A stretch of 62,363 nucleotides of DNA, counting the filler. It is 10 parts of 10 records of this genome, joined end to end, with 100 filler letters (N's around TTAATTAATTAA, not from the genome) between each part and the next. Parts side by side here need not be neighbours in the genome. Positions count along the whole stretch, not along the records: positions 37,132 to 48,906 come from SRR7504441_5669; 9 more parts are not named here. One strand, given 5' to 3'. Under the pieces are notes generated by a model that searched no databases, was not told where the DNA came from, and worked only from the letters and a program-made list of their open reading frames with translations. A program made the translations under genes and the position numbers. Positions 9,428 to 56,790 of this stretch are shown in pieces (positions within the stretch are counted from its first letter, which is position 1; each line of letters begins with the position of its first letter).

Positions 9428-9527
9428 NNNNNNNNNNNNNNNNNNNNNNNNNNNNNNNNNNNNNNNNNNNNTTAATTAATTAANNNNNNNNNNNNNNNNN
9501 NNNNNNNNNNNNNNNNNNNNNNNNNNN
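9428..9527. other. Artificial contig spacer
   Basis: 44 N + TTAATTAATTAA (stops in all frames) + 44 N. Confidence 0.97.
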
Positions 9528-13993: not shown

Positions 13994-14093
13994 NNNNNNN
14001 NNNNNNNNNNNNNNNNNNNNNNNNNNNNNNNNNNNNNTTAATTAATTAANNNNNNNNNNNNNNNNNNNNNNNNNNNNNNNNNNNNNNNNNNNN
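13994..14093. other. Artificial contig spacer
   Basis: N44-TTAATTAATTAA-N44. Confidence 0.97.
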
Positions 14094-18017: not shown

Positions 18018-18117
18018 NNNNNNNNNNNNNNNNNNNNNNNNNNNNNNNNNNNNNNNNNNNNTTAATTAATTAANNNNNNNNNNNNNNNNNNNNNNNNNNN
18101 NNNNNNNNNNNNNNNNN
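18018..18117. other. Artificial contig spacer
   Basis: N44-TTAATTAATTAA-N44. Confidence 0.97.
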
Positions 18118-22427: not shown

Positions 22428-22527
22428 NNNNNNNNNNNNNNNNNNNNNNNNNNNNNNNNNNNNNNNNNNNNTTAATTAATTAANNNNNNNNNNNNNNNNN
22501 NNNNNNNNNNNNNNNNNNNNNNNNNNN
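22428..22527. other. Artificial contig spacer
   Basis: N44-TTAATTAATTAA-N44. Confidence 0.97.
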
Positions 22528-25920: not shown

Positions 25921-26020
25921 NNNNNNNNNNNNNNNNNNNNNNNNNNNNNNNNNNNNNNNNNNNNTTAATTAATTAANNNNNNNNNNNNNNNNNNNNNNNN
26001 NNNNNNNNNNNNNNNNNNNN
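25921..26020. other. Artificial contig spacer (preceded by poly-G)
   Basis: N44-TTAATTAATTAA-N44. Confidence 0.97.
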
Positions 26021-30988: not shown

Positions 30989-31088
30989 NNNNNNNNNNNN
31001 NNNNNNNNNNNNNNNNNNNNNNNNNNNNNNNNTTAATTAATTAANNNNNNNNNNNNNNNNNNNNNNNNNNNNNNNNNNNNNNNNNNNN
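30989..31088. other. Artificial contig spacer
   Basis: N44-TTAATTAATTAA-N44. Confidence 0.97.
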
Positions 31089-33880: not shown

Positions 33881-36354
33881 CTAGTTGAGTAGGTCAACCT
33901 CCATGCTCCTGCCGTCAAACACCAGGCTGGCCTTGAACGAGTCGCACAGCTCCGAGATCTGGAGCAGCCCGTCCCCGTTCAGATCCATCTCGCGGAATAG
34001 CGCCTCGCCGTCCAGCAGCTGATCCTCGGCCGCTCCTAGGTTCACCTCGGCTATGTACGACACAAACTCCTCGTGCTCGATCGTCCCGTTGCCGTCCGTG
34101 TCGATATAGTTAAACAGCAGCTTGACCAGCGGGTAGCTTTTCGTCAGCTGCTCCGCATCCACAGCCTGCCCGCCCGCCACGATCGCCAGCATGCTCGTCT
34201 GAACAAACTCCTCCATATTCACCCGGCCTGCCCCGTCGGCCGGTATTAAATCGGGCTGCCACCGCTCCCAGTACACGCTGATCTTGATCACCTCGCGCAG
34301 CAAGGCCGCCCACTCGGCGACGGGGACCAGCGGCGCCTCCGGGAACCTCCCAAGCAGCTTGAGCTGCTCAAACCTGGCTGCCAGCCTGAACCGGTTCTGT
34401 GCAATCAGCAGCCCGAGCGACTGCCTGTTCCTGGCCTTGAACGTCTCCAGGTCGAGCGCGGCTCCAGTGTAGCTCTTGACCTTTGGCCGCTCGCCCGGCT
34501 GCTTGAATCGCAGTATGGCGCCTTTGTTGGTCGAGCCATCGTAGTTGGAAGCAGAGAATATCGTGAACAGCGAGCGCCCGTCGGCCATCACCAGCTCCTC
34601 GCAGCCCTCCTCGATGCACTCGTGCGACCGCACCACAAACCGCACCCCGAGCGCCTGCCCCCGGCCTCAGCCGTGCCAGCGCGGCCCGAGTTGCCTGCAG
34701 CCACCCATCCGCATGCTCCAGATCGTAAAGCTGCCCGAGTCCGCGGTAGTGGTTGGGGGCGGTGTGGCAGTGCGGGGGCAGCCCCGGGCACTCGTACTGC
34801 AGCTCGGTCTCCGGGTCGCTCCACAGCACCTGCGTCCGCTGGCCTGTGCTCCATAGTCGCGGGGCGGTACCTCGGACACGAGACGCTGGGCCTCCGAGCA
34901 AGAGCTTAAGTCTAGCCCGCTCACACTCATCACGCTGCTCCGGTCAAACTGGTTGAGCTGGTCGAGGCAGAATGGCGGTTGGGTGCTGGGGGGGCCTCCA
35001 TGCAGCACCAGGCAGGTGTCGGGCACGATGCAGCCGAGCGGGATCTTGGTGAAGATCTGGTCAAAAAGCTTGAACAGCTGGTCGCTGTACTTCCACAGAA
35101 CCTCCTGGTAGAAGCCATACGCGGTGCAGATCAGCCGATCCTCGTGATTCCCGCGGTTGAGGAAGACCGTGGAAGGGAAGGCCACCTTGGCCGCCAGCAG
35201 CGTGAGCAGCACCTCTACCCCGTCAGCCCCTGCGCCCACTCATCCCGCCCCTGCAGGCCCACCCACCGCGATCCACGAAGTCGCCGTTGAACACGAACAC
35301 TCGCTCGTGCGCCGGGTAGCCCACGCGGTCGAATATGGTCCGGAGATCGTCTATCTGCCCGTGGAGGTCTCCGACCACCACCACTGGCCGGTCTGGTGAT
35401 GGTGCCGGCGTGAGCACGATGTTGGGCTCCGCCTCGAGCACCGCCAGCGCCTGCTCCATGATCGCAGCCGCGTCCGCCGGGCTGGGTCGGCATCCTAGCG
35501 CGGCCAGCCCAATGAGTCTCCGGACTGTCAGGTGAGTGGCCGGGCTCTGCTCCAGCCCGAGGTCCACAAACGGGAGCTGATTCCCGAGGGAGTCAAGCAC
35601 CGCGCAGATGGACGCCTGCCCGGGCTCGGCCACCGGGCCCCCGATCTCGAACGCCCCGTGGTCGGTCGGCGAGAACCCGGCGCACTCGAGCAGCGCAGCC
35701 ACTCCGGGCTTGGCGGTCTCGTCTGATTGGAGCGAGCCTGGCTGGTCTGGTTGGGCCAGCACCCCGCCGAGCGCCTGCTGCAGCCAGGCCACCGCCCCGG
35801 CCCGCTCCTCCGGCCCGTTCTGGTTGAAGCTCCCGATCGCCTGCCCGAGCGGGGTCTCGGTGCTCCGGACCTGCACCAGCTCCCCCCCCACTGGCCGGCC
35901 CCGGACCTGCCAGGCGGTGGAAGCGTCGTGCGCCGTCCACATCACCTCGAGCGAGTCCAGGTTCCGCTGCCCCCCGCTCGGGGCCCGGCCGCTCCAGGGG
36001 GTGCCTTGCGCGAGAGGAGCCGGTTGACCTCATCCCCGTGGTCCGCAGAGAACTTGGCTTCGATACGAGCGAGCGCCCGGGCCAGGAACACGTGCCGACG
36101 CTCGTCCGCCGCGTCCTGGCCGCCGGTGGGCCGCGGGGGCGGGCGGGCGGCACCACGGCGCCGGCCAGTGAGAAGTGGTCGGTCTGGACCCTTTTGCTCA
36201 GGCAGTAGGGCGGAGTGACCACGGCGGAGGGCGAGTCGTCCATCGAGGCGAAAGACTCGCGCATCGACGAGGCCGGGGTCAGGAACGGGAGCACGCTCGC
36301 CTCGTCGTCGCTCGACTCGTCGCCAGCCGAGGGCATCGCCACCACGCCAGCCAT
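33881..36354 (-). CDS. PPEF: PPP-family Ser/Thr phosphatase with C-terminal EF-hands (PPEF/RdgC-like); start approximate
   Basis: GDLHGQ, GDFVDRG, RGNHE, HGG, LWSDP, RSHE, FSASNY; EF-hands DTDGNGTIEHEEF and DLNGDGLLQISEL. Confidence 0.88.
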
Positions 36355-36419
36355 CCGCCTTGGAACAACGGCAGCTGCTTCATCAGCGCAGCGTTCATCG
36401 CGGCCGCTCAATCAGTGGG

Positions 36420-37031
36420 ATGCAGCAGGCCGAGTTCGAGGAGAGCTGCGAGCAGTGGAAGCTGAGCGGCCAGGTGGGCAGCATCGACGAGTACAACGCC
36501 CGCAAGGCCGAGGCCGCCCTGGCCAGCTGGCTCGGCGCCACCGACGGCAAAGCGGCCGGGAACGAGCACTTCAAAGCCGGTGCGACCGAGCCAGCGATCG
36601 AGTGCTACGAGCGGGGTCTGGCCAAGCTGGCCGGGCTGCCGGTGTGCGACTACACGCTGGCTGACGTCTCGCGGGCCCAGGCCAAGGAGATGCGGCTATC
36701 GCTGTTGCTCAACCTTACTGCCTGCCACCTGCGGCTGGAGGCCTGGCAAACCGCTATAGAGAAGGCCGACCTGGCACTGGCCGCCTCGCCCGGGCACCCC
36801 AAGGCGCTCTTCCGCCGGGGCTCAGCAAACGTCGGGCTCGGTCGGCTGCGGGTGCGGCGGGCGGGGGGCGGGCTGACAGCTGGTCCAGGACGCGATCAAC
36901 GACTTGGAGAAGGCGCTGCAGGCCGGGCCGAACGCCGCGATTCAGAAGGAGCTGGCGGCTACCAAGAGGAAGCTCAAGGATTCGCGCAAGAGCCACAACG
37001 TGCGCCCCAGGAGGGGGGGGGGGGGGGGGCG
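36420..37031 (+). CDS. TPR co-chaperone (Hsp90/70 carboxylate-clamp type), 3'-truncated
   Basis: KAAGNEHFK..YERGL..LLNLTACHLRL..KALFRRG..DLEKAL; clamp residues K, N, N, K, R present. Confidence 0.82.
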
Positions 37032-37131
37032 NNNNNNNNNNNNNNNNNNNNNNNNNNNNNNNNNNNNNNNNNNNNTTAATTAATTAANNNNNNNNNNNNN
37101 NNNNNNNNNNNNNNNNNNNNNNNNNNNNNNN
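37032..37131. other. Artificial contig spacer
   Basis: N44-TTAATTAATTAA-N44. Confidence 0.97.
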
Positions 37132-37263
37132 GAAAAGAAAATAGTCCACGGCTCTCAACAGTGACACCAGCACTGGCGCCTGGCGGCACCGGTGGCCACC
37201 GGTGAGATGCCACCGACCAGCCAGGGCGGGGTGTGACAGCGCAGTGAGCGTGCGCCGGCGTCG

Positions 37264-40200
37264 ATGACTGGCGGGCACAGCCACAGGGCGTGCTCTCCGG
37301 AAGCCCGGCGGGAATGGGGCGACCAGGCAGTGGAAGATGAGGAGGCTGGCGAGTTCGAGGAGGTGTACGAGGAGGCCACCCCGCTGCCGGTGGGCGAGCC
37401 GGCGGGCGAGGAGGAGCTGCGTGTGGGGATCGGGGAGGTCGGGGTGCTGCACTCGGAGGACGTGCTCGAGGTGTTCATGCTGTACGATATGGACGACTCG
37501 GGCACGGTCAACACGCGGGACGAGATGCTGCACCTCACCATGAACATGTGCTATCGAGCCAACCTGCAGGTGGACCCGGCCGCCCTGCAGGACACGGTAG
37601 CGCCGGCTGGCCGCGCCGCCCCCAGCTGGGCGTCAGGTGGACCAGATGTACGCGGCAGGCGAGGAGTGGCGGCCGCGCAAGTTCACGCGCTGGTTCTGTC
37701 GAGAGTTCAATGTCCGGATCGCTGGGCAAGCGCTGGAGCTGGAGGAGCAGCCGGACCAGTCGGTCAGCCCGGGCGACTGGGACGAGAACTCGGAGGGCGA
37801 CGATCTGTTCTATGCGGGGCCGGGCGATTTCGACGGGGTGGCCTCGCTCTGCTATAGGACGCACGACACGGACGACAGCGGGACGATCAACTCCGAGTTC
37901 GAGCTGCTGTTCATCACGGTGGACATGGCAGCCCAGCTGCAGCTCGATTTGTCCAGGGATGTTCTCCAGAGAGAGGTGCGGCGTAAGTGGGCAGCCTGCT
38001 CAGACGAGGGCGACGGTGCGTGCCAGCACACGGCTGGCGGCAGCTGGGCCGGCAGGCGAGCTGCGGCTGACCGAGCTCAAGCGCTGGTTCCACTTTACGT
38101 TCGTGCAGAGCCGGCCGAAAGAGGTGGGAGCTCTGGACGGCTGGCGGCCGAGCCGAGCGGCAGGAACATCCTGATAAATACCTAGCTGAGGTTGAGCGCG
38201 TGTCGAGCGACTCCGAGAACGACTCGTCCGGCAACGAACAGGAGGCCGGGGGCGCGCCGGATAAGGCGAGGCGGAATTGGCCGTGCAAGCAGCAGGCGAT
38301 GGCGGTGCGACCTCTGAGGGGTTCAGCTGACGTGTGGTGGGTGCAGATTCGGCGACACATTGTGTTCAAGGTAGTTTGGGCGGGCAGGTGCACTGGAGAC
38401 GGGCGGGGCAGGTCTTTTTGAACTTGTGCATCCTGGTCAACTGCATTGCGATAGCAATTTGGGACCCGAAAGACCCCGGCTCCCAGTATAACAAAATGCT
38501 AGATCACGTAGAGCTCGGACTGCTGATCGTGTTCACCGTCGAGATGGTCAGCTACTCGCAGCGTACAACTGAGCGGCTGGCAGGTGATCAAGATGGTCTC
38601 GACGGGGATGCGGCGATACTTCCAGTCAACGTTTAATCGGATAGACTTTGTGGTGGTGGTCGTGGGCTACCCCGCTCAGTTCCTCTCGACGTTCAAGGTC
38701 TGCTCATGCTGGTCACTGTCGGCTCACGGCCTGCCAGGTCAGCGTGCTCAGGACGCTCCGGCTTCTGCGGCCTCTGCGCTCGCTCAACAAGTGACTGGCC
38801 AGAGCAATGGGCTGCTCAGCTGTGCTGCAGGCAGAAAGATCTGATGATCTTGACTCGGACTCTGATCCTGTCGCTCTCTAAGCTGATCCCTGTGTTCGGG
38901 CTGTTCGCGTTTGTGTACCTGATGCTTGGGATAGTCGGCCTCCAGCTATTTATGGGAGACCTGAACAACCGGTGCTACGACGTCACTGTGTCGCCATACA
39001 CGATCGACACATCCAGCGACCGGCTGTGTGGCGGGTGATTGGACTGCGGATTCGGGCAGCGCTGACACAGTTGTGTGTGACTGCAGGTATCGCAAATGCA
39101 GTTCAGGGAATTCTTGTTACATCTCGCGCTCGTCGCCAAACTATGGGATCACAAACTTCAACAACATCGGCAACGCGATGCTGACCATCTTCATAGCTAG
39201 CACCACCGAGGGTTGGGTCGATGCAATGTATTTCCTGCAGGCAAGTCGCCGGCTTGAGCCTGCCAGCGAGCTGACTGGGCAGGACTCTTCCAACTGGTGG
39301 GGCGCCACAATCTATTTCGTGTTTGTGATTCTGATCACCTCGTTGTTTGTTATGGAGCTTGCCAAAGCGGTCATCCAGGTCTCCCGCCCACTGGGCCTGC
39401 AGGCGATTCCCTGAGCGAAATACTGCAGGATCGATACTCTGTGGTCGAGCAAGCCATGAACGCGGGCAAGGGTGTAGACAGCCCAGGTGACGATCCGATG
39501 AACGATCTGTTTAGCCCAGAGGGCTACCTTAAGGGGCGCGACGGGATGCATGCTTCAGCCAATGGGCAGCCTAAGCCACTGGGCAGCGGCGTGCTGATGA
39601 CATCTTCGGCTAATCTGATGTCCTCACAGGAGTTTGAAGATGACTTTGCTCAGATGGACATTAGCTCGCCCCGGGGAAGCCGCGCACCGTCCCCGGGCAT
39701 GCCAGCGGCCCTGCACTCGCCTGTCGGAGCCCCTGGAGAAAACCTCGGGGTTGGAGTGAACAGTATCTATGAGGGTGACCTCGGTGACTCTGAAGACGCG
39801 TCTGGGCCTGGAAAGCAGGCGCGGTCCAGGCGAGGGTCTGTTGGTACGGATGATTTTGAGGATATGAGCGGCGAGCTACCAGCTCAGCTGGACCAGCCTG
39901 CATCTGAGCCCAACCATGGGGCAGGGAGTGGGAGTGGGCAGAAGCAAAATACTGACCCGCCAACTCAACACTCACTCAGTGAGTCTACTTCGAGCCGAAA
40001 GGATCCCCTGTCACCCATGACGCCGATAACATCGCCTCGGTTTGTCAAACGAGAAAATATGCCATGTTTTGAACACGAGCGCTGGGACTGGTGTTGGGGA
40101 ACCAAAGGGCGGTGGAGTAGATATTGCCGCAAGTTGACTCGTTCCCAAAACTTTGAGAAGCTGGTGCTACTGATGGTAGTGCTTAACGCTCTGTCGCTCT

Positions 40201-43200
40201 GCTTGGAGCACACGAGCACTTGCACAGTGAATGGAATCAGACAAGCATGCAACATGGAACAAGACATGCGCACGGCTCTAGAGGTGACCTGAGCTTGCAA
40301 TGCAGCCGATGTGTAAGCCTCTGCCCCCGGTGATTAACATCGTGTTTCTGTCGATCTTTGTGATCGAGATGGCCATCAAGATGGCTGGGCTGGGTCCAAT
40401 CGGCTACTTCACATCCTGGCTAAACCTATTCGATGCTGCCACCGTCATTATCGGTATTATTGAACTCTCCTTCTCGGGGTCCTCTTCTGTGACTGCTATA
40501 CGGTGCCTGCGGCTTGCCCGGCTGGCGCGGATCTCCAGGGCATGGAAGTCTATGAACGACATGATCAATTCACTCGCTCTGGCAATGCCGTCTGTCGGCT
40601 ACTTTGCAATTCTGGTGATGCTTTACCTGTACATGTCAGCAGTTGTCGGCATGTCATTCTTTGGTGGGAGGTTCGACACGCAACATGGGCTGGAGACAAA
40701 TCCGCGGGCCAACTTTGACAACTTTGGCACGGCCTCACTCACTGTTTTCCAGATTCTGACTGGTGAAAATTGGAACGAAGTGCTGTATAATGGTGTCAAG
40801 ACAACCAATTATGCGGCAGTCTTATACTTTCTGGTAGTGTTTATGATTGGGGACATCGTGATTCTCAATTTGTTCTTGGCCGTCATTCTTCAGTTCTTTG
40901 ACGATGGTGACCCTGAATTATCAATAAAAGATGCCCGGAAGACGCTCAGAGGCATCTGTTGCCCTGTCCAGTGCTTTGGGGAGGACGACCTCGAGGACGA
41001 GGCCACAATGGGCACTGTATCAGCAGGTGATATCGTGAATAAGAAGGAGCGCCGTCGCCGAAAGATTGCAGCCAAAGTCACAACATCGCTGGCGCCTCAT
41101 AGAATCACATCCGCGCAGATGCTCACCACTAGTGCGGCGGAGTGCGACGAAGGGTCGATTGAGATGGAGCTGCAGTCACCCAAGTCACCCAGAAGATACG
41201 CAGCTGGCTCCCCTCGAGAGGCCAGACAAGATATGAGGTCGCCCACATCCGAGACAGAAATCGAGATTGTGGACATGTCCGTGTCGCGAATGATCCACGA
41301 TCGCCGGCGTGCGAAAGTGGTCAAGTCCGCATCCAAGCCATGGCACTACTGGTGTTTTCCGACAAAAACTGCTGCAGATCTGGGGGTAGGAACAGGAGGG
41401 AGGAAACTGCCAGATCATACGTCGCTATTCTGCCTGGCATCTGACAACAAGTTCCGCAGGGCGTGCGCACTCTTCATTCGGCAACCATGGGTAGAGAATC
41501 TCGTGATGTTTATGATTGTGGTCTCTTCGGTGGTACTTGTTTTTGACCTGAGTCCAGACAGGCAGGACTCTGGTTGGGGGGACAGAGTTCTCTGGGGATT
41601 TGACATTGGGTTTGTGTGCTTCTTTGGCCTTGAAGCCTCATTGAAGATCATTGCACAAGGCTTCATTCTGCATCGAAGAGCCTACCTCAGGTCAGTCTGG
41701 AATTGGCTTGACTTCATTGTGGTGATCACCTCAATCGTGAGTGTGGTACTGGCCGACCAAGACCTAGAGGTGGTCCGTGTGCTCCGGATCTTTCGCACGT
41801 TACGGCCACTTCGTACTGTAAAGAGGTCGCCATCTCTGCGTGTAGTGGTAGAAGCAACAATCCTGTGTCTTCCATCCTTCATCAACGTGCTGCTGCTTAC
41901 TGTGTTTGTAAACCTCGTGTTTGCTATCATAGCAGTGCAACTGTTTGCTGGAAAGTTTTGGCGCTGTGTAGACAGCGATGGTGTTACTGTTTGTGTGTCA
42001 TGGCATTCAAGCTACTGTACGAATGCGTCAGGCAACAATATCTACAATGCTGAGACCTGTGTGGCGTTTGGCGGTTACTGGAAGAACGAACAGCAGAACT
42101 TCGATAACATTGGCAACGCGATGCTGACATTATTTGAGGTTGCCTCACTCGAAATGTGGCTTGAGCCACTGTACGCTTCAATGGACTTGCCCAATACCAT
42201 CGGCCAGCAGCCCATACGCAACCAGTCGGCATGGTGGGCCATCTACTTTGTGATATTCATAGTAATAGGTTCATTTCTCGTGATCAATATATTCGTTGGT
42301 GCTGTGGTGGACAATTTTGAAAAAGCTAAACTGAATGCGAAAGGGGCCTTGATGTTGACCGAGGACCAGCAGAAGTTTGTGGAGTCGATGCATGTTCTCC
42401 TGTCGTTCAAGCCAGAATCCTTTCCGCATCCGCCTGAATACGACGCATGGATGGTGCATACACGAACCTTGTGCTACAGGCTCATCACCTGGGACTTTGA
42501 TGGTACAGGCAAGGGTAAGATGTTTGACCTAGCTATTATGTGTGCAATCTATGTCAATGTGCTTGTGATGGCAATGACTGTCTGGAACCCACCCTCATCA
42601 GGGTCATATGTCAGTCCAGGCTCAGACAATGCAGATAGTCTAGTCGACTCTGACTGGAATGTTTCGCTCAACTACATCAACATGGGCTTTACTTGGCTAT
42701 TCTTCCTCGAGATGGTAATCAAGATGCTTGGGCTAGGACTCGGCCAGTACTTCGATAACAATTGGAATGTTTTTGACTTTATACTGGTCGTGCTTTCTAC
42801 CCTTGGCTTCTTCCTGGAAATCTTCTTGTCCCAAGGGATGCCCCTCTCCCCACAGGTACTAATCCACCCTGCCTGCAACATCACTGACCCATATGTGCTG
42901 GCAGCTGCTCAGAGTTGTCCGTTCCATTCGATCTTTCCGCTTGATTCGTACTCTTCGGAGAGCCAGGAGCATCACGCGCTTGCTAGACACGCTCGTTACA
43001 GCGCTGCCTGCTGTGGGCAATGTGATCATGCTGCTTTCATTGACCATATTCATATATGCTCTACTAGGAATGGCGATCTTTGGACACATAAAGGTAGACT
43101 CGGGACCATATCAAGCGCTGAATTCGCATGCTAACTTTCATACTTTCAATGTGGCGGTGGTGACCCTCTTCCGATTCACAACTGGAGAGAGCTGGAACGC

Positions 43201-44308
43201 CGTGATGCATGACTGCATGGACCAGACCTCACCAGCCGCCTTCTTGTACTTTGTCACCTTTGAAATATTCTGTGGCTACTTAGTTCTTAACCTGGTGGTG
43301 GCAATTGTGCTCAATCGATTTCAGAAGGTGCATATTAGGCTGGATTGCACTGAGCGCTGGGCAGGTGATTGACTTGGAAAATGAGGTGGTGACGCCACAC
43401 CTTGTGCACCAGTACAAGGTGGCCTGGGAGACATTTGACACCACGGAAGAGTTTCTCGACGCTGATCAGCTTGATGACTTCATCACCAAGGTGGGGGGTT
43501 TGGTCGCTGCGGCCCGAAGCGACCGGTCGGGTGGCAGGTGCCCTGGCCACTAGGGCTGGGCCACCCTGAGTCCAAGGAGAGATATAACGACCCTAAGGCG
43601 CTGAGGGAGCTTAAGTCCACCATCCCACTGACCGGGGACGGCCGAGCTGTGCATTATGTGGAGTGCTTTGTAGCCATGTGCAAGAATGCGTACTCGTATG
43701 CTCCAACAGTTGCAGACATTCCGGAAAAGTCTTTCAAGGATTTTGTCATCGAAGTGTCCCACTTATTTCCGTCGCTCTATCAGGTGGCCACTAGCCCCGT
43801 TCTACTTCTGCTACTGTCCCCACCCCCTTGTTGAATGCTGCCTCCTCTCATAGTGACTCGCCCCTACCATGAGGCACCGCATTTGAGACTCTTGTGTATC
43901 GCCTGCGTTGAGCACTCCGCACGCAATCGGAATGGCCTGGCAGCTGAGCTGTTGCTCTGCCAGGCCACTCCGTTGCCGATGGAGCGTTCGATGCAGGGGA
44001 TGGGTATCATGCAGCTGGACGCGCGGGACTATGCCGTGCTGATGGAATCGCGTGGAGTTTACAACCTGAGTGACCTGATGGGCAGCACACATGAGACATT
44101 GAAAGCCGAGTATCGGATGCGGAAGCAGCACCGCAAGATTATCTTGGGTCATCTCGACAGCTTTGCTAATGTCGACTTGGTACTTTCACCGAGACATCGA
44201 GCAAGGGGGGACCGCGATGTTAAAGCAACTAAAAAGTTAAGAAGGAGGAGAGAGGAAGAGAGGAGGCTAAATGCAAACAGCCCCCTTGCAGACGAGGAAG
44301 TCAGCTGA
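37264..44308 (+). CDS. Four-domain voltage-gated Ca2+ channel alpha subunit (EEEE filter) with N-terminal EF-hand-like repeats and probable C-terminal SAM domain
   Basis: Four S4 segments (LRTLRLLRPLR, IRCLRLARLAR, LRIFRTLRPLR, VRSIRSFRLIR) and pore loops TTEGW, TGENW, SLEMW, TGESW. A 40-nt intron at 38124-38163 links the upstream EF exons in frame. Confidence 0.9.
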
Positions 44309-44639
44309 TCTTACTTCTACCGTGACCACGAGTAAATTAAATTGATTAATTAAAGTCAAGCCGAAGCCCATGTAACCCGATCTAGCTGCTATAATCATTA
44401 TCATAATCAATTTAAAAAGGAACATCAAATTATACATGTACGAGAACGTGGCAAAGTGAGCTCATGAATTTGTGTCTGATCATGATAAGGCGAGGAAGCT
44501 ATTGTCTATAGTACTTGGTATACGTATCAATTGTTAGAGCTCTTATACGTTGCAGACCTACGAGCACTCGTACGCAATGATTCTCTTTTGCCGTTGCGTG
44601 ACATAATTATTCTGTAGGAATGGGTGCAGCTGATTAAGC

Positions 44640-47600
44640 TCACAATGCCTCTGCTTGAAGAGTAGCTAATGCATATCTGGCTTGCGCTGCTTTGGCCTTT
44701 GCAGCTTTTGCAGCCGCCTCAGCTGCAAGTGCCTCCGCTTCGGCGTCGGCAGCTGCTGATTTTGCCATTGCGAGTTCAATCTGCTTCTGTCGACCAGATG
44801 CTGCATCCGATGGCTGCAAATGTGATGGCTCCTCGTCATCTATGATGATGGCCTCATGCTGGTTGGCAGTGTTGTGGCTAAGCCACTCCACTGCTGCAGG
44901 CACACCGGTGTTGCGAGTCGCCAAGCATGCCTCGGTCGCGGCAACCTGTGCATAACCCATCTCGACGAGCCAATTGACCACGACTGGGTTTGCTTCGGAA
45001 TCCATCTGAACTAACCTAGGCGCCATTTCTTCCTTGGTGGTTGTAACTGTGGCCTGCCGCTTTCTGGATGCAAAGTAGGCCTCCGATTCTGTCTTTAGCC
45101 TTCTCATGCGATCTGCAAATGCTTCGGATGGCTGCGCGGGCCCAACTTGCTTGCCGTGTGGATTAGGTGCTGCGTGGGGGTTAGGTGTTGCGTGTGGGTT
45201 AGGTGCTGGCGGGATTGGCGCCTCTGGGAGCAGCTCACCTCGCTTACTTCTGACGTATCTTACGAGATTTCCGATGTATCCCGAGAGTTCGTTGTATGTC
45301 AGTGCTGCAGACGATTGTGCGACCCCGAGCTCGGTGCCATCTGCTAGGACGACCTTGGCATTTTGTTGTTTCATGTCGTTCAGCCAGCGCATTACTTGGT
45401 CGCCCGTCATGTTGCCATCCAAAAAGCGGACCTTGACCGTTTTCTTTTGCCCAATTCGATGACATCGGTCCATAGCTTGCGCATGTACAAAGGGATTGAA
45501 CCACCTGTAGTTAGTTAATTACCGATCTTCAGGATTCGGGTTACCTATCGAGGAACAGGATATGGTTGGCCTCAGTGATGTTGAGCCCCGTTCCTCCTGA
45601 AGCTACCGTCGCAAGTAGCACCCGACAGTCCGTCTGCGTCTTGAATCGCTCTAACTCTTGCGCTCGATTCGATGGGGTGACATCTCCATCGAATCGAGCG
45701 CAATCAATCCCCGAGGAGGTCAAGGCCCCCTCGAGGAGGTCAAGGCCAGACTTGAAGAAGCTCAAAATAATCCCCTTATCGTTTTGCGGCAAGTTCTCCA
45801 CCCACTCGATTGCCTCCTGAATTTTGGTTGATACCTTAAATCCAGGTTGATCGGGGTTGATCGGGAGTGTAACATGCTCGCAGAACGATTTTCCCTCAAG
45901 GGACAATCGGTTTGCAAAGTCTTCACAACGGGGGCACGTCTCCTTTGCATCAAACAAATTTGCTTCAGCCACCAAATCTGCTTCAGCCAAACTAGTTCTA
46001 AGCTTGGTAGCTTCTCGGAGGCCAAAAACTAAGCCGTCGTAGGCTTTTTCAAGATCACCTTGATCGAGCTCGCCTTTTCCCGACGAGCTAAGTTGTTGCT
46101 TCATTGCAGAAATTGTAGATAAATGCGGAGTGAGTTGCTGCACAAGGTCATTTGCCCTATCTACAAGCTCTACCAAGAATCGCACGTGCGGGCCTGTCGC
46201 ACAACTTTGCGCATCATCGCGCAACTTCGCTGCCACGACAAATGCAGCACGCATTGTAGCCAAACCTATTTTTTCCTTGATGCAAACGTCATGGGCCCAG
46301 TGCCCGCAGCTTCCTCTACATATTATATTACCACAATCTTGAAGCTTGCACAGTGCTCCGAGGCTCCTGCCCTCGGCCTTACCCTCGGCCTTGTGATCTT
46401 CGTCTCCATCCTTGTCTTCATCCACATCCTGCAGAAAATGAAAGTCAGTTAGTTCATTCTTCGATTTCGTCGGCTCACCTCCAGACTTAAGGACGTTCGA
46501 ACGTTTCCACTGAAGCAAATGTGCTTTGGTTTAAGCTTTTCTTGAGGAAATGCCTCGGTGAACTGCTCAAAGTACTGGCTAAACACTCCCTCCGGAGGGG
46601 CATGTCCCCCGACTCTCTCGTACTCGCAAATTCTGCACTTTTTCTTCTCCTCTAAGCTCTTGAGCAGCCCCTTTCGTGTTGGGCTAAAAGGAATGGTAAA
46701 CTCGCGCCCGTTTGGCGCCAACGGGTGGATCAATGATAGCCGCATGCATTGCAAGCAGCTCATCATTTGCATGAATAATCTGTTTCTCTCCTGCCTCGCC
46801 ATCAAAGAATCATCGCCGCTCAGCATGTTGAACTGGTCCAGAATTTTTAGGAAGCTATCTTCATAGATGGCGTAAAACTGAATCTCTCGCTTCACGTCCA
46901 GCTCTCCGCCGACAAACTCCTTTGGCTCGAGCTGCCCGAACGTGCCGACCAAAACTTCCTTGCCCCGGCGCACCATGTATTTCTCCCGCCATGCCGAAAC
47001 TTGTTGTGCAGCGTCACTCGAGGAGAGAGCAGACAAAGCCTGCTCCCACCAACCAACTTGGGCTGCTGGATGCCTCACGTCCATGAACGACTGGATTGCT
47101 GCCATGTCTGCGATAGAATTGTTGTACGGAGTGCCTGTTAGGGGCACACTGTACTCCGACTGTGCTGCAAGCAGCATAGCACCAATTCCCCAAAATGCCG
47201 CTTGATTCTTAAGGAAATGCGCCTCGTCGATGATTAATGTCCTGAAAACCTGAACCCGGCCTAGCCCAGCAGCTCCGGTGCAAACAGCCGTCCGGATGAG
47301 CCTGCTGACGATGTCCGCGTCTGTCTCTCCGGGCATTTTGTGCTGATACGGAGCACTGCCGTGTGAGGCTTTGTACGTTTGATGAAGAGCACTGCCTAGA
47401 GGTCCCGTAAGTTGCGGAAACAAGACAGATGTTGCATGTTGAGTTGAGGCACCCTCCAAAGCCTGCCTCGCCTCCACTTGGAGGGTGTAGCGGGTCATCA
47501 AGACCCAAGCCGTACTGAGCACGCTTGGTGCGCCACCCAGAGACCACCGACGGGCCTCTCTTGAAGCCTTGCTAGTGAAAATCAGGATGGCGCTCGGGCT

Positions 47601-48517
47601 TGTCCCAGCCTGGAGCAGATGAGTCCTCCACTGTGCAAGCACTGCATCGTTTGGGGCAACGATTAGTGTTGGCAGTGCCGGCTTACGTTGTGCTCTCGCA
47701 ATCCCGATCCGGAGCAGTGCTCCTCCAATTGCCTCGACAGTCTTGCCCAAGCCCATCACGTCAGCAAGGAGCACCCCTCGAGTCTGTGTAGGCTCGGCCG
47801 AGGCCATAATCTCGAGCGGATCCCCACGGTTCCCTTTCTTGCCCGGGAAGGTCATTGACACTCCAGCCGTAGCACGTACTGCGACAAACTGGTGCGGCAG
47901 CAGCTCAAAATTAAACCCCAGTTCAAAGAGCATCTCCTGCAGTCTGCGGTCTTCTGCACGGTCAAGCTTAGCCAAACACGCCGCTTTTTGCGCGCAAGAT
48001 AGCTCGAGCTGTCCCCCGGCACTGTCCCTCTTTCGCTTGAGGCGCTGGGGCGCTGTCATGCTGCAAGGTGCTGCTCGAGATGCTGCAGGTTCGGAGGGTT
48101 CATCACCTGGACCAAAGGCTCGTCAGAACTCTCGCCTGGCACCGATCTATGGCCGGCTAGAGCCGGTGGGCAGCGGGCAGCCGGGCCGGGGAATCGCCAG
48201 CTCCCGAGGTAGCCCGGGGGCGGCTGATCTGAGAGCCCTCGGGAGGGCAAGGCGAGGTGTGTTGTACCTTCAGAACCTGGCCTTGCCTCTGTCTCCCCGA
48301 CAGTCGGCTTGGCCTGCTCTTCAGCACCATCCGAGTCGCTAGAGTCCACCAACCATGCGAGCTGAGCCGAGGATCCCGCGGCTGATTGAGGATCCCCAGG
48401 CGAGGCGACCGGGGAGGCAACAGGCCCACAGCCGCACACGGTGCAGTGGTTGCACTCGGCGCGGTTCTTGTAGTCGCACTCGGCGCAATTCCAGTCGGCT
48501 TGAACCACCATCTCCAT
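44640..48517 (-). CDS. SNF2-family (Rad5/Rad16-like) ATPase with RanBP2 zinc finger, interrupted RING-like finger and UBA domain
   Basis: WNCAECDYKN..CTVC; LADVMGLGKT; IIDEAH; LTGTPYNN; GGTGLN; WFNP..QAMDRCHRIGQ; UBA LVEMGY..AAVEWL. Confidence 0.9.
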
Positions 48518-48600
48518 TGTTGCCCGGGCTTGCCGTTGGGAATCGACTCAGGGGTGCTGCTGCAGGCGGTGGGCAGCGGTCCGGGTTGCCTCAGCCTGTA

Positions 48601-48906
48601 ATGGCGACGGAGGAGGAGCTGGCGGCAGTGAGTGCGGCGGTGGCTGCCAAGAGGGCCGAGCTGGAGGAGCTGGAGCGAAGGATCTCGGCCGCCCGGGCGC
48701 AGCTGCCGGAGAGCCCCAGCACAGCCGGTTGGTTTGTATCGCAGCAAGACGCAGGGCGCGCGCCCGATCCGAGCTGGTTTTGTGGCGGGCCAGCGAGCAT
48801 CGGGACCCGGGGTTGGTTTGTAGCCAAATCTGGCGAGGACCCGGGCTGGTTTCGTGGCCGGCGAGAGGTGGCGGGACGCGGCTGGTTTATTGGCGAGCAC
48901 GAGGCC
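48601..48906 (+). CDS. Coiled-coil + GWF-repeat protein, 3'-truncated
   Basis: ATG 48601, a short coiled coil, then five (G/S)WF motifs; the frame stays open to the contig end. Confidence 0.55.
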
Positions 48907-49006
48907 NNNNNNNNNNNNNNNNNNNNNNNNNNNNNNNNNNNNNNNNNNNNTTAATTAATTAANNNNNNNNNNNNNNNNNNNNNNNNNNNNNNNNNNNNNN
49001 NNNNNN
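48907..49006. other. Artificial contig spacer
   Basis: N44-TTAATTAATTAA-N44. Confidence 0.97.
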
Positions 49007-56690: not shown

Positions 56691-56790
56691 NNNNNNNNNN
56701 NNNNNNNNNNNNNNNNNNNNNNNNNNNNNNNNNNTTAATTAATTAANNNNNNNNNNNNNNNNNNNNNNNNNNNNNNNNNNNNNNNNNNNN
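56691..56790. other. Artificial contig spacer
   Basis: N44-TTAATTAATTAA-N44. Confidence 0.97.

What the first reader, a model, noticed from the sequence alone, without database searches (positions are those of the whole stretch)
37264..44308. Voltage-gated Ca2+ channel with built-in N-terminal EF-hand repeats and C-terminal SAM
Seen: two ~75-aa repeats (FMLYDMDDSGTVNTRDEM..FTRWF and YRTHDTDDSGTINSEFEL..LKRWF, with one extra loop residue relative to canonical EF-hands) splice in frame through a 40-nt intron into domain I. The pore residues are E/E/E/E, no clear IQ motif is visible, and the tail (YAVLMESRGVYNLSDL..MRKQHRKIIL) looks like SAM. Established: Cav feedback normally uses calmodulin bound in trans at the IQ motif. 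Inference: the channel carries its own Ca2+ sensor and a polymerising/clustering domain, an architecture I do not know from characterised channels.
Basis: partly seen in the sequence, partly recalled or inferred. Interest (0 to 1): 0.72.

Follow-up and report, generated by a model that had tools for sequence, protein, structure and literature searches.

The report
Calcium channel with built-in sensor domains
A marine protist gene encodes a voltage-gated calcium channel that has lost the usual calmodulin docking site and instead carries two calmodulin-like EF-hand modules at its start and a SAM-type assembly domain at its end, an arrangement not described for studied channels.

Summary
Window 37264-44308 (+) can be read as one 16-exon gene of 2080 codons. 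It encodes a four-domain voltage-gated channel with E/E/E/E pore glutamates and four R/K-rich S4 segments.

- **N-terminus:** it holds a real internal repeat (z 11.5, 0 of 1000 shuffles). A profile of the two window copies finds centrin, calpain, calmodulin and other EF-hand proteins in the PDB (best E 7e-7). Both loops are one residue longer than canonical.
- **C-terminal exon:** it belongs to a small conserved family, of which 2 of 7 relatives pass Pfam's SAM_2 cut-off.
- **SAM link:** three public contigs carry uninterrupted ORFs running from channel domain IV straight into this domain.
- **N-terminal link:** support is weaker. One 1955-aa metagenomic homologue (P0001) has the same order of parts, and the splice model fits. 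No RNA covers either end.
- **IQ motif:** none is found, although 8 of 11 other relatives examined have one at the C-terminus.

Calcium sensing and clustering are inferred, not shown. Verdict: a new variant of a known kind, of moderate to high interest.

The parts
37032..37131 (.). Artificial contig joint (N44 + TTAATTAATTAA + N44). The gene's contig runs 37132-48906.
   Evidence: one search lists 10 such joints in the window; one search shows the letters
37264..44308 (+). Whole gene model of 16 exons and 2080 codons. Exons: 37264-37596, 37637-37982, 38056-38123, 38164-38370, 38412-38546, 38584-38697, 38738-38790, 38831-39034, 39087-39240, 39283-39378, 39429-40283, 40318-42855, 42905-43327, 43365-43490, 43538-43783, 43964-44308.
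   Evidence: There is no internal stop. 14 of 15 introns are 34-73 nt, and 14 of 15 use a GT donor (one uses GC).
37450..37708 (+). EF-hand-pair lobe 1 (residues about 63-135), interrupted by the 40-nt intron 37597-37636. The 13-residue loop is at 37486-37524.
   Evidence: GC1/2/3 of 0.74/0.39/0.89 in this frame
37829..38105 (+). EF-hand-pair lobe 2 (residues about 176-243), interrupted by the 73-nt intron 37983-38055. The 13-residue loop is at 37865-37903 and has F, not E or D, at loop position 12.
38124..38163 (+). The 40-nt intron that joins the EF module to the linker exon. If it were retained, the frame would stop at TGA 38172-38174.
   Evidence: The acceptor ranks 7th of 101 AG sites and the donor 11th of 71 GT sites, under a matrix trained on ten core introns.
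38164..38370 (+). Acidic, Ser-rich linker exon. It holds an in-frame ATG at 38299-38301 that a separate channel transcript could use.
   Evidence: GC1/2/3 of 0.65/0.46/0.72
38412..39378 (+). Channel domain I (six exons). S4 lies at 38750-38779 and the pore Glu at 39208-39210. The intron at 39241-39282 uses a GC donor.
40318..42855 (+). Large exon holding most of domain II, the II-III loop, domain III, and domain IV up to S3. S4 segments lie at 40501-40548 and 41776-41823. Pore Glu codons are at 40765-40767 and 42151-42153.
   Evidence: Ion_trans E 4e-118, three stretches; RNA contigs at 41080-41283 and 41577-41807
42856..42904 (+). 49-nt intron, the only one confirmed by RNA.
   Evidence: table 5: one metatranscriptome contig skips it
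42905..43327 (+). Domain IV from S4 to S6. S4 lies at 42911-42967 and the pore Glu at 43187-43189.
   Evidence: Ion_trans E 3e-33
43365..43783 (+). Proximal C-terminal region, homologous to the post-IVS6 region of other channels (two exons). No IQ motif follows it.
43784..43963 (+). 180-nt last intron. It contains the in-frame TGA at 43832-43834. Other acceptors would give a SAM-less product: 43853 leads to an immediate TGA and 43943 to a frameshift.
   Evidence: Acceptor 43963 is the one that makes the product align without a gap to L001-L003.
43964..44308 (+). Last exon. It holds a SAM-like domain (about 43964-44170), then a basic tail and the stop.
44640..48122 (-). Convergent neighbour, an SNF2-family helicase with a C-terminal UBA domain. 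It bounds the channel gene's 3' end.

Best explanation
One gene encodes a Cav-type four-domain voltage-gated Ca2+ channel with an E/E/E/E filter and four charged S4 segments. The ancestral C-terminal IQ calmodulin site is absent. Two accessory modules are fused in cis.

- **N-terminal module (cytosolic).** It has two EF-hand-pair lobes. Each lobe has one 13-residue DxDDSGT[VI]N...E loop and one degenerate partner hand.
- **C-terminal module.** It is a divergent SAM-type domain.

Proposed working:
1. Depolarisation opens the pore.
2. Entering Ca2+ is read by the tethered EF lobes.
3. The lobes then dock on a cytosolic part of the same channel and change gating. This would be feedback like calmodulin/IQ but in cis, the same logic as a calmodulin-like domain fused to a kinase in CDPKs.
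4. The SAM domain ties the channel to other copies or to SAM-bearing scaffold proteins, fixing where it sits.

Shown here: the channel identity, the repeat, its EF-hand kinship, the SAM-family kinship of the tail, and the tail's fusion to the channel in relatives. Inferred: the N-terminal fusion in this organism (about 0.8), Ca2+ binding, the gating effect and self-association.
For: - **Channel.** Ion_trans is found on the exons. The best named relatives are L-type Cav proteins at 28-33% identity. Pore glutamates and S4 runs are mapped.
- **Repeat.** z 11.5, with 0 of 1000 shuffles reaching the score.
- **EF-hand kinship, profile search.** A profile of the window's two half-lobes alone gives 79 PDB sequences at E<=10. 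The best are centrin (7.3e-7), calpain-3 (2.4e-4), GCAP1 and ALG-2 and calmodulin (0.002-0.005). By their names, 56 of the 60 rows shown are EF-hand proteins.
- **EF-hand kinship, homologue.** The profile that includes P0001 aligns across a whole EF-hand pair of GCAP1. hhalign picks the Pfam-verified EF-hand of P0007 out of its 1986 residues (E 4e-4, probability 34%). In the AF2 model of P0001, residues 149-226 form helix-loop-helix twice with a bridge between the loops (pLDDT 61-82). Its best structural matches over that stretch are mostly calmodulin, centrin, troponin C, CaBP and myosin light chains (Z 6-7.6).
- **N-terminal fusion.** P0001 has the same order of parts in one ORF: EF lobe, linker, four domains, SAM-like tail. 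All four N-terminal exons show coding-type GC1/GC2/GC3. Their acceptors rank 6th, 1st, 7th and 2nd of 101 AG sites.
- **SAM.** Four relatives score E 9e-11 to 2e-8 among 1.84 billion representatives. SAM_2 is hit by 6 of 7 relatives and passes Pfam's cut-off in 2 of them (24.2 and 22.2 bits against 20.5). SAM_1 is sub-threshold in 6 of 7. The language-model neighbours are SAM_1/SAM_2 clusters (0.89).
- **SAM fusion.** L001, L002 and L003 have uninterrupted ORFs from the channel into the domain. They are 57-62% identical to the model in single alignments that cross the last exon junction.
- **IQ loss.** The model and P0001 have no IQ-like match at the C-terminus. Of the other 11 relatives examined, 8 have one there. 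A survey of 277 such channels (PMC5824947, passages read) infers calmodulin-binding motifs in the ancestor.
Against: - No RNA covers either terminus.
- The window's own pieces give no Pfam EF-hand or SAM hit at E<=1. P0001's N-terminal hits are below cut-off (18.2 bits against 25.9).
- The loops have 13 residues, not 12. Loop 2 has F at position 12, and the partner hands have no ligand pattern. Ca2+ binding is therefore not assured.
- The donors of introns 1 and 2 score poorly (ranks 44 and 25 of 71).
- No protein of 341-2000 aa sharing words with the window's N-terminal exon scored. None of 1075-3422 aa matched P0001's N-terminus except P0001 itself.
- The structural matches are middling (Z below 8), which the tool warns is common for helical models.
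- The tail also gives sub-threshold hits to RNA polymerase alpha CTD and HhH families.
- The best-scoring acceptor near the last exon is 43943, which would frameshift, not 43963.
Confidence: 0.5

Rival explanations
1. The fusion is real, but the EF lobes are not a gating sensor. They would be a Ca2+-insensitive or weakly sensitive adaptor, like myosin light chains, centrin on its target repeats, or the EF-like fold in channel C-termini. In that case they anchor the channel to a cytoskeletal or flagellar structure.
For: - The loops are non-canonical (13 residues; F at position 12 of loop 2).
- The second hand of each lobe is degenerate.
- The best sequence match is centrin/caltractin.
- Structural matches include myosin light chains and the EF-like C-terminal fold of NALCN.
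Against: - Positions 1, 3, 5, 6, 8 and 9 of both loops keep the ligand pattern.
- An acidic residue follows at position 13 in both window loops and in P0001. That conservation is expected if a metal is bound.
- Loss of the IQ site in the same proteins fits a replacement of the sensor.
Confidence: 0.25
2. Gene-model artefact at the 5' end. The EF-repeat ORF would be a separate small gene, or an alternative first-exon product, that ends at TGA 38172-38174. The channel would start at ATG 38299, 24 codons before the exon that begins IS1.
For: - No RNA covers 37140-41027.
- Open frames are easy to get in DNA of 65% GC.
- Donors of introns 1 and 2 score poorly.
- Many relatives have short N-termini (for example P0002).
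- The contig edge lies 132 nt upstream.
Against: - P0001 carries EF lobe, linker and channel in one uninterrupted ORF, collinear with the model.
- Only about 125 nt would separate the two genes.
- The intron has the local modal size (40 nt) and a GGCAG acceptor like the core introns.
- The linker exon shows coding-type GC by codon position.
Confidence: 0.12
3. The SAM exon is used only in some transcripts. Splicing to 43853 or 43943, or intron retention, would give SAM-less channels, so the tail would be a regulated option rather than a constant part.
For: - Acceptor 43943 scores 13.2 against 4.4 for 43963.
- Acceptor 43853 follows a pyrimidine run and leads to an immediate stop.
- The intron is 180 nt, whereas the others are 34-73 nt.
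Against: - Relatives L001-L003 and P0001 encode the SAM-containing form.
- Nothing here shows a SAM-less RNA.
- 14 of 15 acceptors are CAG, which 43853 (TAG) is not.
Confidence: 0.15
4. The tail is not SAM proper. It would be a helix-hairpin-helix domain of the RNA polymerase alpha CTD type, with some other binding role.
For: - The profile of the tail family gives RNA polymerase alpha CTD as its best PDB hit (E 0.0023).
- RNA_pol_A_CTD and POLH-Rev1_HhH are sub-threshold in 2 of 7 relatives each.
Against: - SAM_2 is the top family in 5 of 7 relatives and passes its cut-off in 2.
- None of the HhH families passes its cut-off.
- 9 of the ten best language-model neighbours with a family share the SAM family or clan.
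- A DNA-binding module on a plasma-membrane channel tail has no obvious role (inference).
Confidence: 0.1

Closest known systems
Animal high-voltage-activated Cav1/Cav2 channels with calmodulin on the C-terminal IQ domain
   Same: Four 6-TM domains, E/E/E/E filter and charged S4s. The best named sequence matches are at 28-33% identity. A Ca2+ sensor of the EF-hand class is presumed to sit at the cytosolic face.
   Different: The sensor here is part of the polypeptide and sits at the N-terminus. There is no IQ motif. The tail ends in a SAM-type domain. The beta-subunit site (AID) was not examined.
Protist and algal four-domain channels (P0002, P0003, P0006, Ectocarpus P0074 and others)
   Same: Same channel core at 28-38% identity, with short or no extra domains.
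   Different: Of the 11 relatives examined (excluding P0001), 8 keep an IQ-like motif at the C-terminus. None of those read has the N-terminal lobes or the SAM tail; only P0001 does.
P0007, a metagenomic four-domain channel with a canonical EF-hand pair in the II-III loop
   Same: An EF-hand pair built into a Cav-like channel (EF-hand_7 E 5.5e-12, above cut-off). hhalign aligns it to the N-terminal lobe of P0001.
   Different: The position differs (II-III loop rather than N-terminus), the loops are canonical 12-residue ones, an IQ-like motif is still present, and there is no SAM.
Two-pore channel TPC1 of plants and diatoms
   Same: A voltage-gated-superfamily channel with cytosolic EF-hands in cis. 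In plants the second hand is needed for Ca2+-dependent gating (PMC11085791, passages read).
   Different: TPC1 has two domains rather than four. Its EF-hands lie between the domains, it is an endomembrane channel, and it has no SAM.
Calcium-dependent protein kinases (CDPK)
   Same: A calmodulin-like EF-hand module is fused in cis to the protein it regulates. CDPK EF-hands are among the PDB matches of the window's repeat profile. That the fusion replaces calmodulin in trans is recalled knowledge.
   Different: The regulated part is a kinase rather than a channel, and the module is C-terminal with four canonical hands.
STIM1 EF-SAM
   Same: An EF-hand and a SAM domain occur in one Ca2+-signalling protein. 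The papers were seen only as a search listing.
   Different: In STIM the two domains are adjacent, face the ER lumen and form one unit. Here they are about 1700 residues apart, on either side of a channel, and cytosolic.

Membership tests
Four-domain voltage-gated cation channel, Cav type | Four homologous 6-TM Ion_trans repeats in one chain | tested here: met
   Pfam Ion_trans is found on the exons (E 4e-118 with three stretches, 3e-33, and a weak 0.039 on the IS1 exon). The model aligns to P0001's four domains.
Four-domain voltage-gated cation channel, Cav type | S4 segments with R/K at every third position | tested here: met
   Four runs lie at 38750-38779, 40501-40548, 41776-41823 and 42911-42967.
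Four-domain voltage-gated cation channel, Cav type | E/E/E/E selectivity-filter ring | tested here: met
   Glu is found in the P-loop motif of each domain. Actual ion selectivity was not tested.
Calmodulin-regulated Cav/Nav (IQ-bearing) | IQ motif after the post-IVS6 region | tested here: not met
   There is no C-terminal match in the model or in P0001, while 8 of 11 other relatives have one (the motif was recalled). Pfam gives no IQ hit on the window pieces or on L001.
Animal HVA Cav1/Cav2 | AID site for the beta subunit in the I-II loop | not tested
   Not examined with a tool. PMC5824947 (passages) reports AID only in the animal HVA clade.
EF-hand | Significant sequence match to EF-hand proteins | tested here: met
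   The profile of the window's two half-lobes searched against PDB gives centrin at E 7.3e-7. By name, 56 of the 60 listed rows are EF-hand proteins.
EF-hand | Pfam EF-hand model above its gathering score | tested here: not met
   The window pieces give no hit at E<=1. The P0001 N-terminus scores 18.2 bits on EF-hand_5 against a cut-off of 25.9.
EF-hand | 12-residue loop with ligands at positions 1, 3, 5, 7, 9 and Glu at 12 | tested here: not met
   Positions 1, 3, 5, 6, 8 and 9 fit. Position 12 is D (loop 1) or F (loop 2). The conserved acidic residue followed by a hydrophobic one comes a position late, and aligners open a one-residue gap there.
EF-hand | Paired helix-loop-helix fold | tested here: inconclusive
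   Tested only on the homologue P0001. The model has pLDDT 61-82 over residues 149-226 and matches EF-hand proteins at Z 6-7.6. The window's own lobes could not be folded because they are split by introns.
EF-hand | Binds Ca2+ | not testable with these tools
   This needs protein chemistry.
SAM domain (Pfam SAM_2 / SAM_1) | Pfam model above its gathering score | tested here: inconclusive
   The window's exon gives no SAM hit at E<=10. Its relatives at 49-57% identity do: P0121 scores 24.2 bits and P0122 22.2 bits against a cut-off of 20.5. Four more relatives hit SAM_2 below the cut-off, and L001 hits only SAM_1 below its cut-off.
SAM domain (Pfam SAM_2 / SAM_1) | Five-helix SAM fold | tested here: inconclusive
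   The AF2 model has mean pLDDT 63. The structural searches gave nothing clear.
SAM domain (Pfam SAM_2 / SAM_1) | Self-association or polymer formation | not testable with these tools
   This needs SEC-MALS, EM or a two-hybrid test.

The most novel reading that the evidence does not exclude
A small clade of marine protists replaced the ancestral calmodulin/IQ feedback of Cav channels with a self-contained design. A tethered two-lobe EF-hand sensor with unusual 13-residue loops gates the channel in cis, and a SAM domain polymerises the channels into fixed clusters. This would be a natural counterpart of the engineered calmodulin-channel fusions used to study calmodulation (those are recalled, not read here).
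Probability: 0.3. Interest if true: 0.75.

Novelty: new variant of a known kind. Interest (0 to 1): 0.6.

Why it matters
Calcium feedback on Cav and Nav channels is understood almost entirely through free calmodulin bound at the IQ site. The one broad survey read here (PMC5824947) infers calmodulin-binding motifs already in the ancestral channel.

A channel that dropped the IQ site and carries its own EF-hand module would be an independent solution to the same problem. It would have fixed 1:1 stoichiometry and no dependence on the cell's calmodulin pool. It is directly testable by expressing the channel with and without the module.

The SAM tail would put channel clustering into the channel itself, a job that separate scaffold proteins do at animal synapses. 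The conserved 13-residue loop is also a compact case for asking how loop length tunes metal binding in EF-hands.

Three literature searches turned up no description of a four-domain channel with either fusion. The library is partial, and supplements were closed. That includes Supplementary Table S3 of PMC5824947, which lists motif states for 277 channels.

Tried and rejected
**Searches and jobs that gave nothing useful**
- **Pfam on raw window pieces:** only Ion_trans and PKD_channel, no EF-hand, SAM, IQ or GPHH at E<=1.
- **Single-exon phmmer against PDB:** nothing useful. The tail gave a designed repeat protein and RNA polymerase alpha at E 1. Exon 2 gave one restriction enzyme at E 0.27.
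- **Word-based protein search with P0001 residues 1-300:** only itself among proteins of 1075-3422 aa.
- **Word-based protein search with the window's exon 2:** none among proteins of 341-2000 aa.
- **Locus search with P0001 in metagenome contigs:** 9 pattern matches, none confirmed.
- **RNA:** one run holding 0.07 of the sampled words. Three short contigs were laid, and neither terminus is covered.
- **Tail structure:** the AF2 model has mean pLDDT 63. Foldseek gave no match at E<=0.001. VIA-align gave no Z of 5 or more, and most rows matched only the long last helix.
- **Two copies of the SAM-like domain in complex prediction:** no verdict (score 0.00). This is evidence neither for nor against binding.
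- **Whole genome:** none is held.
- **Earlier findings of this scan:** none.

**Ideas considered and dropped**
- **Chimeric contig.** The GC content falls from 0.68 at the 5' end to about 0.5. I dropped this because GC3 declines gradually (0.9 to 0.55 over about 700 codons), the other contig end is GC-rich too, and P0001 is collinear.
- **Two short introns with a mini-exon in place of the 180-nt intron.** I dropped this because L001-L003 align across the junction without extra residues.
- **The N-terminus continuing upstream of the contig joint.** This is unlikely, because an in-frame TGA lies at 37234-37236. An upstream intron is not excluded.


Full report
**Setting.** The window is not one stretch of chromosome. 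It is a chain of contigs joined by 100-nt linkers (N44, TTAATTAATTAA, N44) at ten places. The finding lies in the contig 37132-48906 and starts 132 nt after the joint at 37032-37131. The DNA is eukaryotic, with many very short introns. No whole genome is held, and no earlier notes exist for it.

**Gene model.** I enumerated GT/GC..AG introns that keep the frames open and chose among them by agreement with homologues. This gave 16 exons, 6243 nt and 2080 codons with no internal stop.
- Fourteen of the fifteen introns are 34-73 nt and the last is 180 nt.
- Fourteen acceptors are CAG and one is AAG. One donor is GC.
- The only public RNA found is a seawater polyA metatranscriptome holding 0.07 of the sampled words.
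- Its three contigs lie on 41080-41283, 41577-41807 and 42768-43021 with 0-1 mismatches. One skips the 49-nt intron 42856-42904.
- So the gene is expressed and spliced, but neither end is covered.

**The channel.** Pfam finds Ion_trans on the exons: E 4e-118 with three stretches on the large exon, and 3e-33 on the domain IV exon.
- The closest named proteins are L-type Cav alpha-1 subunits of animals and Cav-like proteins of algae, at 28-33% identity.
- Each P-loop has its glutamate, at 39208-39210, 40765-40767, 42151-42153 and 43187-43189. Each domain has an S4 run of R/K at every third position.

**N-terminal repeats.** The two copies align with score 84 against 26.8 +/- 5.0 for shuffles (z 11.5; 0 of 1000 reach it).
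- The window pieces alone gave no Pfam EF-hand hit at E<=1.
- A profile built from the window's own two half-lobes (alignment A4) finds 79 PDB sequences at E<=10. Centrin/caltractin scores 7.3e-7, calpain-3 scores 2.4e-4, and GCAP1, ALG-2 and calmodulin score 0.002-0.005. Calcineurin B, CDPK, hippocalcin and recoverin follow. By their names, 56 of the 60 rows shown are EF-hand proteins, and 4 are the copine BONZAI 1.
- The top full-sequence E-value sums several weak per-hand matches. The best single stretch has i-E 0.043.
- The loops are DMDDSGTVNTRDE (37486-37524) and DTDDSGTINSEFE (37865-37903). Positions 1, 3, 5, 6, 8 and 9 follow the EF-hand rule. The acidic residue followed by a hydrophobic one comes one place late.
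- HMMER and hhalign both open a one-residue gap in canonical hands at that spot.
- The homologue P0001 has DLDGSGSINSLEE, which fits both registers.
- Each roughly 70-residue copy therefore looks like an EF-hand pair with one ligand-bearing 13-residue loop and one degenerate partner. Two copies make a calmodulin-like two-lobe module.

**Homologue P0001.** This 1955-aa protein from one JGI contig of 8704 nt is 38% identical to the model over 1268 alignment columns (model residues 803-2023). That single alignment runs into the last exon.
- It has the same order of parts in one ORF: the end of a first lobe, a second lobe, an acidic linker, four domains, and a tail similar to the window's last exon. 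BLASTP E-values are 3e-4 and 0.003 for the N-terminal exons and 4e-5 for the tail.
- Its N-terminus gives sub-threshold EF-hand hits: EF-hand_5 at E 0.0017 (18.2 bits against 25.9), EF-hand_7 at 0.024, EF-hand_6 at 0.044 and EF-hand_1 at 0.1.
- Its language-model neighbours are EF-hand clusters (0.90; a lead only).
- An AF2 model of residues 1-246 is poor overall (mean pLDDT 54). Residues 149-226 have pLDDT 61-82 and fold as helix-loop-helix twice, with a bridge between the loops.
- The structural matches over that stretch are mostly calmodulin-type proteins at Z 6-7.6, and also the EF-like C-terminal fold of NALCN. Such Z values are common for helical models, so this is support, not proof.

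**Is the N-terminal module part of the channel here?**

For:
- P0001 is collinear with the model.
- All four N-terminal exons show GC1/GC2/GC3 typical of coding in the chosen frames (0.59-0.74, 0.36-0.46, 0.72-0.91).
- Their acceptors rank 6th, 1st, 7th and 2nd of 101 AG sites under a matrix trained on ten core introns.
- A separate gene would leave only about 125 nt before the next possible start (ATG 38299).

Against:
- There is no RNA.
- The donors of introns 1 and 2 are weak (ranks 44 and 25 of 71).
- Open frames come easily in 65% GC DNA.
- No further protein with this N-terminus was found.

I put the fusion at about 0.8. The fall in GC along the gene is gradual (GC3 0.9 to 0.55 over about 700 codons), which argues against an assembly chimera.

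**The tail.** A full HMMER scan of 1.84 billion representatives with 43964-44179 gave four hits, at E 9e-11 to 2e-8 and 49-57% identity. All are short called ORFs of 86-99 aa.
- A pattern scan of metagenome contigs with their alignment gave three loci.
- In all three the domain is the end of a long uninterrupted ORF that begins in the channel. L001 has 1267 codons from domain II onward, L002 has 356 and L003 has 321.
- They are 57-62% identical to the model in single alignments that cross the junction of the last two exons.
- They have no extra residues at the junction. This selects acceptor 43963 and the 180-nt intron.
- The link between channel and tail is thus shown in four other sequences, P0001 included, though not by RNA of this organism.
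- The best-scoring acceptor nearby (43943) would frameshift, and 43853 would give an immediate stop. SAM-less isoforms are therefore possible.

**Is the tail a SAM domain?**
- The window's exon itself gives no SAM hit.
- Of seven relatives, six hit SAM_2 and two pass Pfam's cut-off (24.2 and 22.2 bits against 20.5). Six hit SAM_1 below its cut-off.
- RNA polymerase alpha CTD and an HhH family appear below cut-off in two relatives each. Alpha CTD is the best PDB sequence match of the family profile (E 0.0023).
- The language-model neighbours are SAM_1/SAM_2 clusters (0.89).
- The AF2 model is weak (pLDDT 63) and the fold searches gave nothing clear.
- I read it as a divergent SAM-type domain.

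**IQ motif.** A recalled IQ-type expression finds a C-terminal match in 8 of the 11 other relatives examined, but none in the model or in P0001. Pfam finds no IQ in the window pieces or in L001. In these two lineages the tail domain follows the post-IVS6 region directly, where the others have the IQ helix.

**Context.** The next gene is convergent, an SNF2-family helicase with a UBA domain on the minus strand (44640-48122). The SAM exon therefore cannot belong to a downstream plus-strand gene.

**Mechanism.**
- Shown: a Cav-type channel core, an EF-hand-related two-lobe N-terminal repeat, a SAM-family tail fused to the channel in relatives, and no IQ motif.
- Inferred: the N-terminal lobes are cytosolic, as Cav N-termini are. 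They bind entering Ca2+ and then act on the channel in cis, in place of calmodulin on IQ. The SAM domain ties channels to each other or to a scaffold.
- The main rival is that the lobes are a Ca2+-insensitive adaptor of the centrin or light-chain kind.

**Known or new.** Cis EF-hands are known in two-pore channels (PMC11085791, passages). One metagenomic Cav-like protein met here, P0007, has a canonical EF-hand pair in its II-III loop. A survey of 277 four-domain channels discusses loss of pre-IQ and IQ motifs in some clades but has no occurrence of 'EF-hand' in its text (PMC5824947). Its supplementary tables could not be seen. Three searches found no paper describing an N-terminal EF-hand module or a SAM tail on a four-domain channel. 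I rate it a new variant of a known kind.

Noticed in passing
window 9428-9527, 13994-14093, 18018-18117, 22428-22527, 25921-26020, 30989-31088, 37032-37131, 48907-49006, 56691-56790: The window is a chain of separate contigs joined by N44 + TTAATTAATTAA + N44 linkers. Gene order and distances across these joints mean nothing. GC content differs strongly between pieces (0.50-0.68).
   Followed up: partly
window 37264-40300: There is a strong 5'-to-3' gradient of third-position GC within the gene, from 0.88-0.90 in the first 200 codons down to about 0.55 by codon 700. The far end of the contig is GC-rich again (0.66-0.69 at 48132-48906).
   Followed up: partly
P0007 residues 867-926 (metagenomic protein): This is another Cav-like four-domain channel, with a canonical EF-hand pair above Pfam's cut-off inside its II-III loop and an IQ-like motif still present. 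Built-in EF-hands may have arisen more than once in protist channels.
   Followed up: partly
window 39241-39282: One of the 15 introns uses a GC donor (GCAAGT...CAG, 42 nt). The acceptors are almost uniformly G-rich followed by CAG.
   Followed up: no
window 43853 and 43943: Two alternative acceptors lie inside the 180-nt last intron. Each would give a channel without the SAM-like tail, by an immediate TGA or by a frameshift to a 33-codon tail. Acceptor 43943 scores higher than the one supported by homology.
   Followed up: partly
window 44640-48122 (-): The convergent neighbour is an SNF2-related helicase (SNF2-rel_dom, Helicase_C) with a C-terminal UBA domain, split over at least three open frames.
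   Followed up: partly
window 36219-37031 (+): An open frame with a TPR-like look runs into the contig joint just upstream. Pfam gave no hit at E<=0.001. It belongs to a different contig and is unrelated to the channel.
   Followed up: partly
P0121-P0125: The SAM-like domain's closest relatives in the protein collections are called as stand-alone ORFs of 86-102 aa on contigs of 436-1962 nt. They are probably last exons cut off by an intron, as in this gene, and not free-standing proteins.
   Followed up: no
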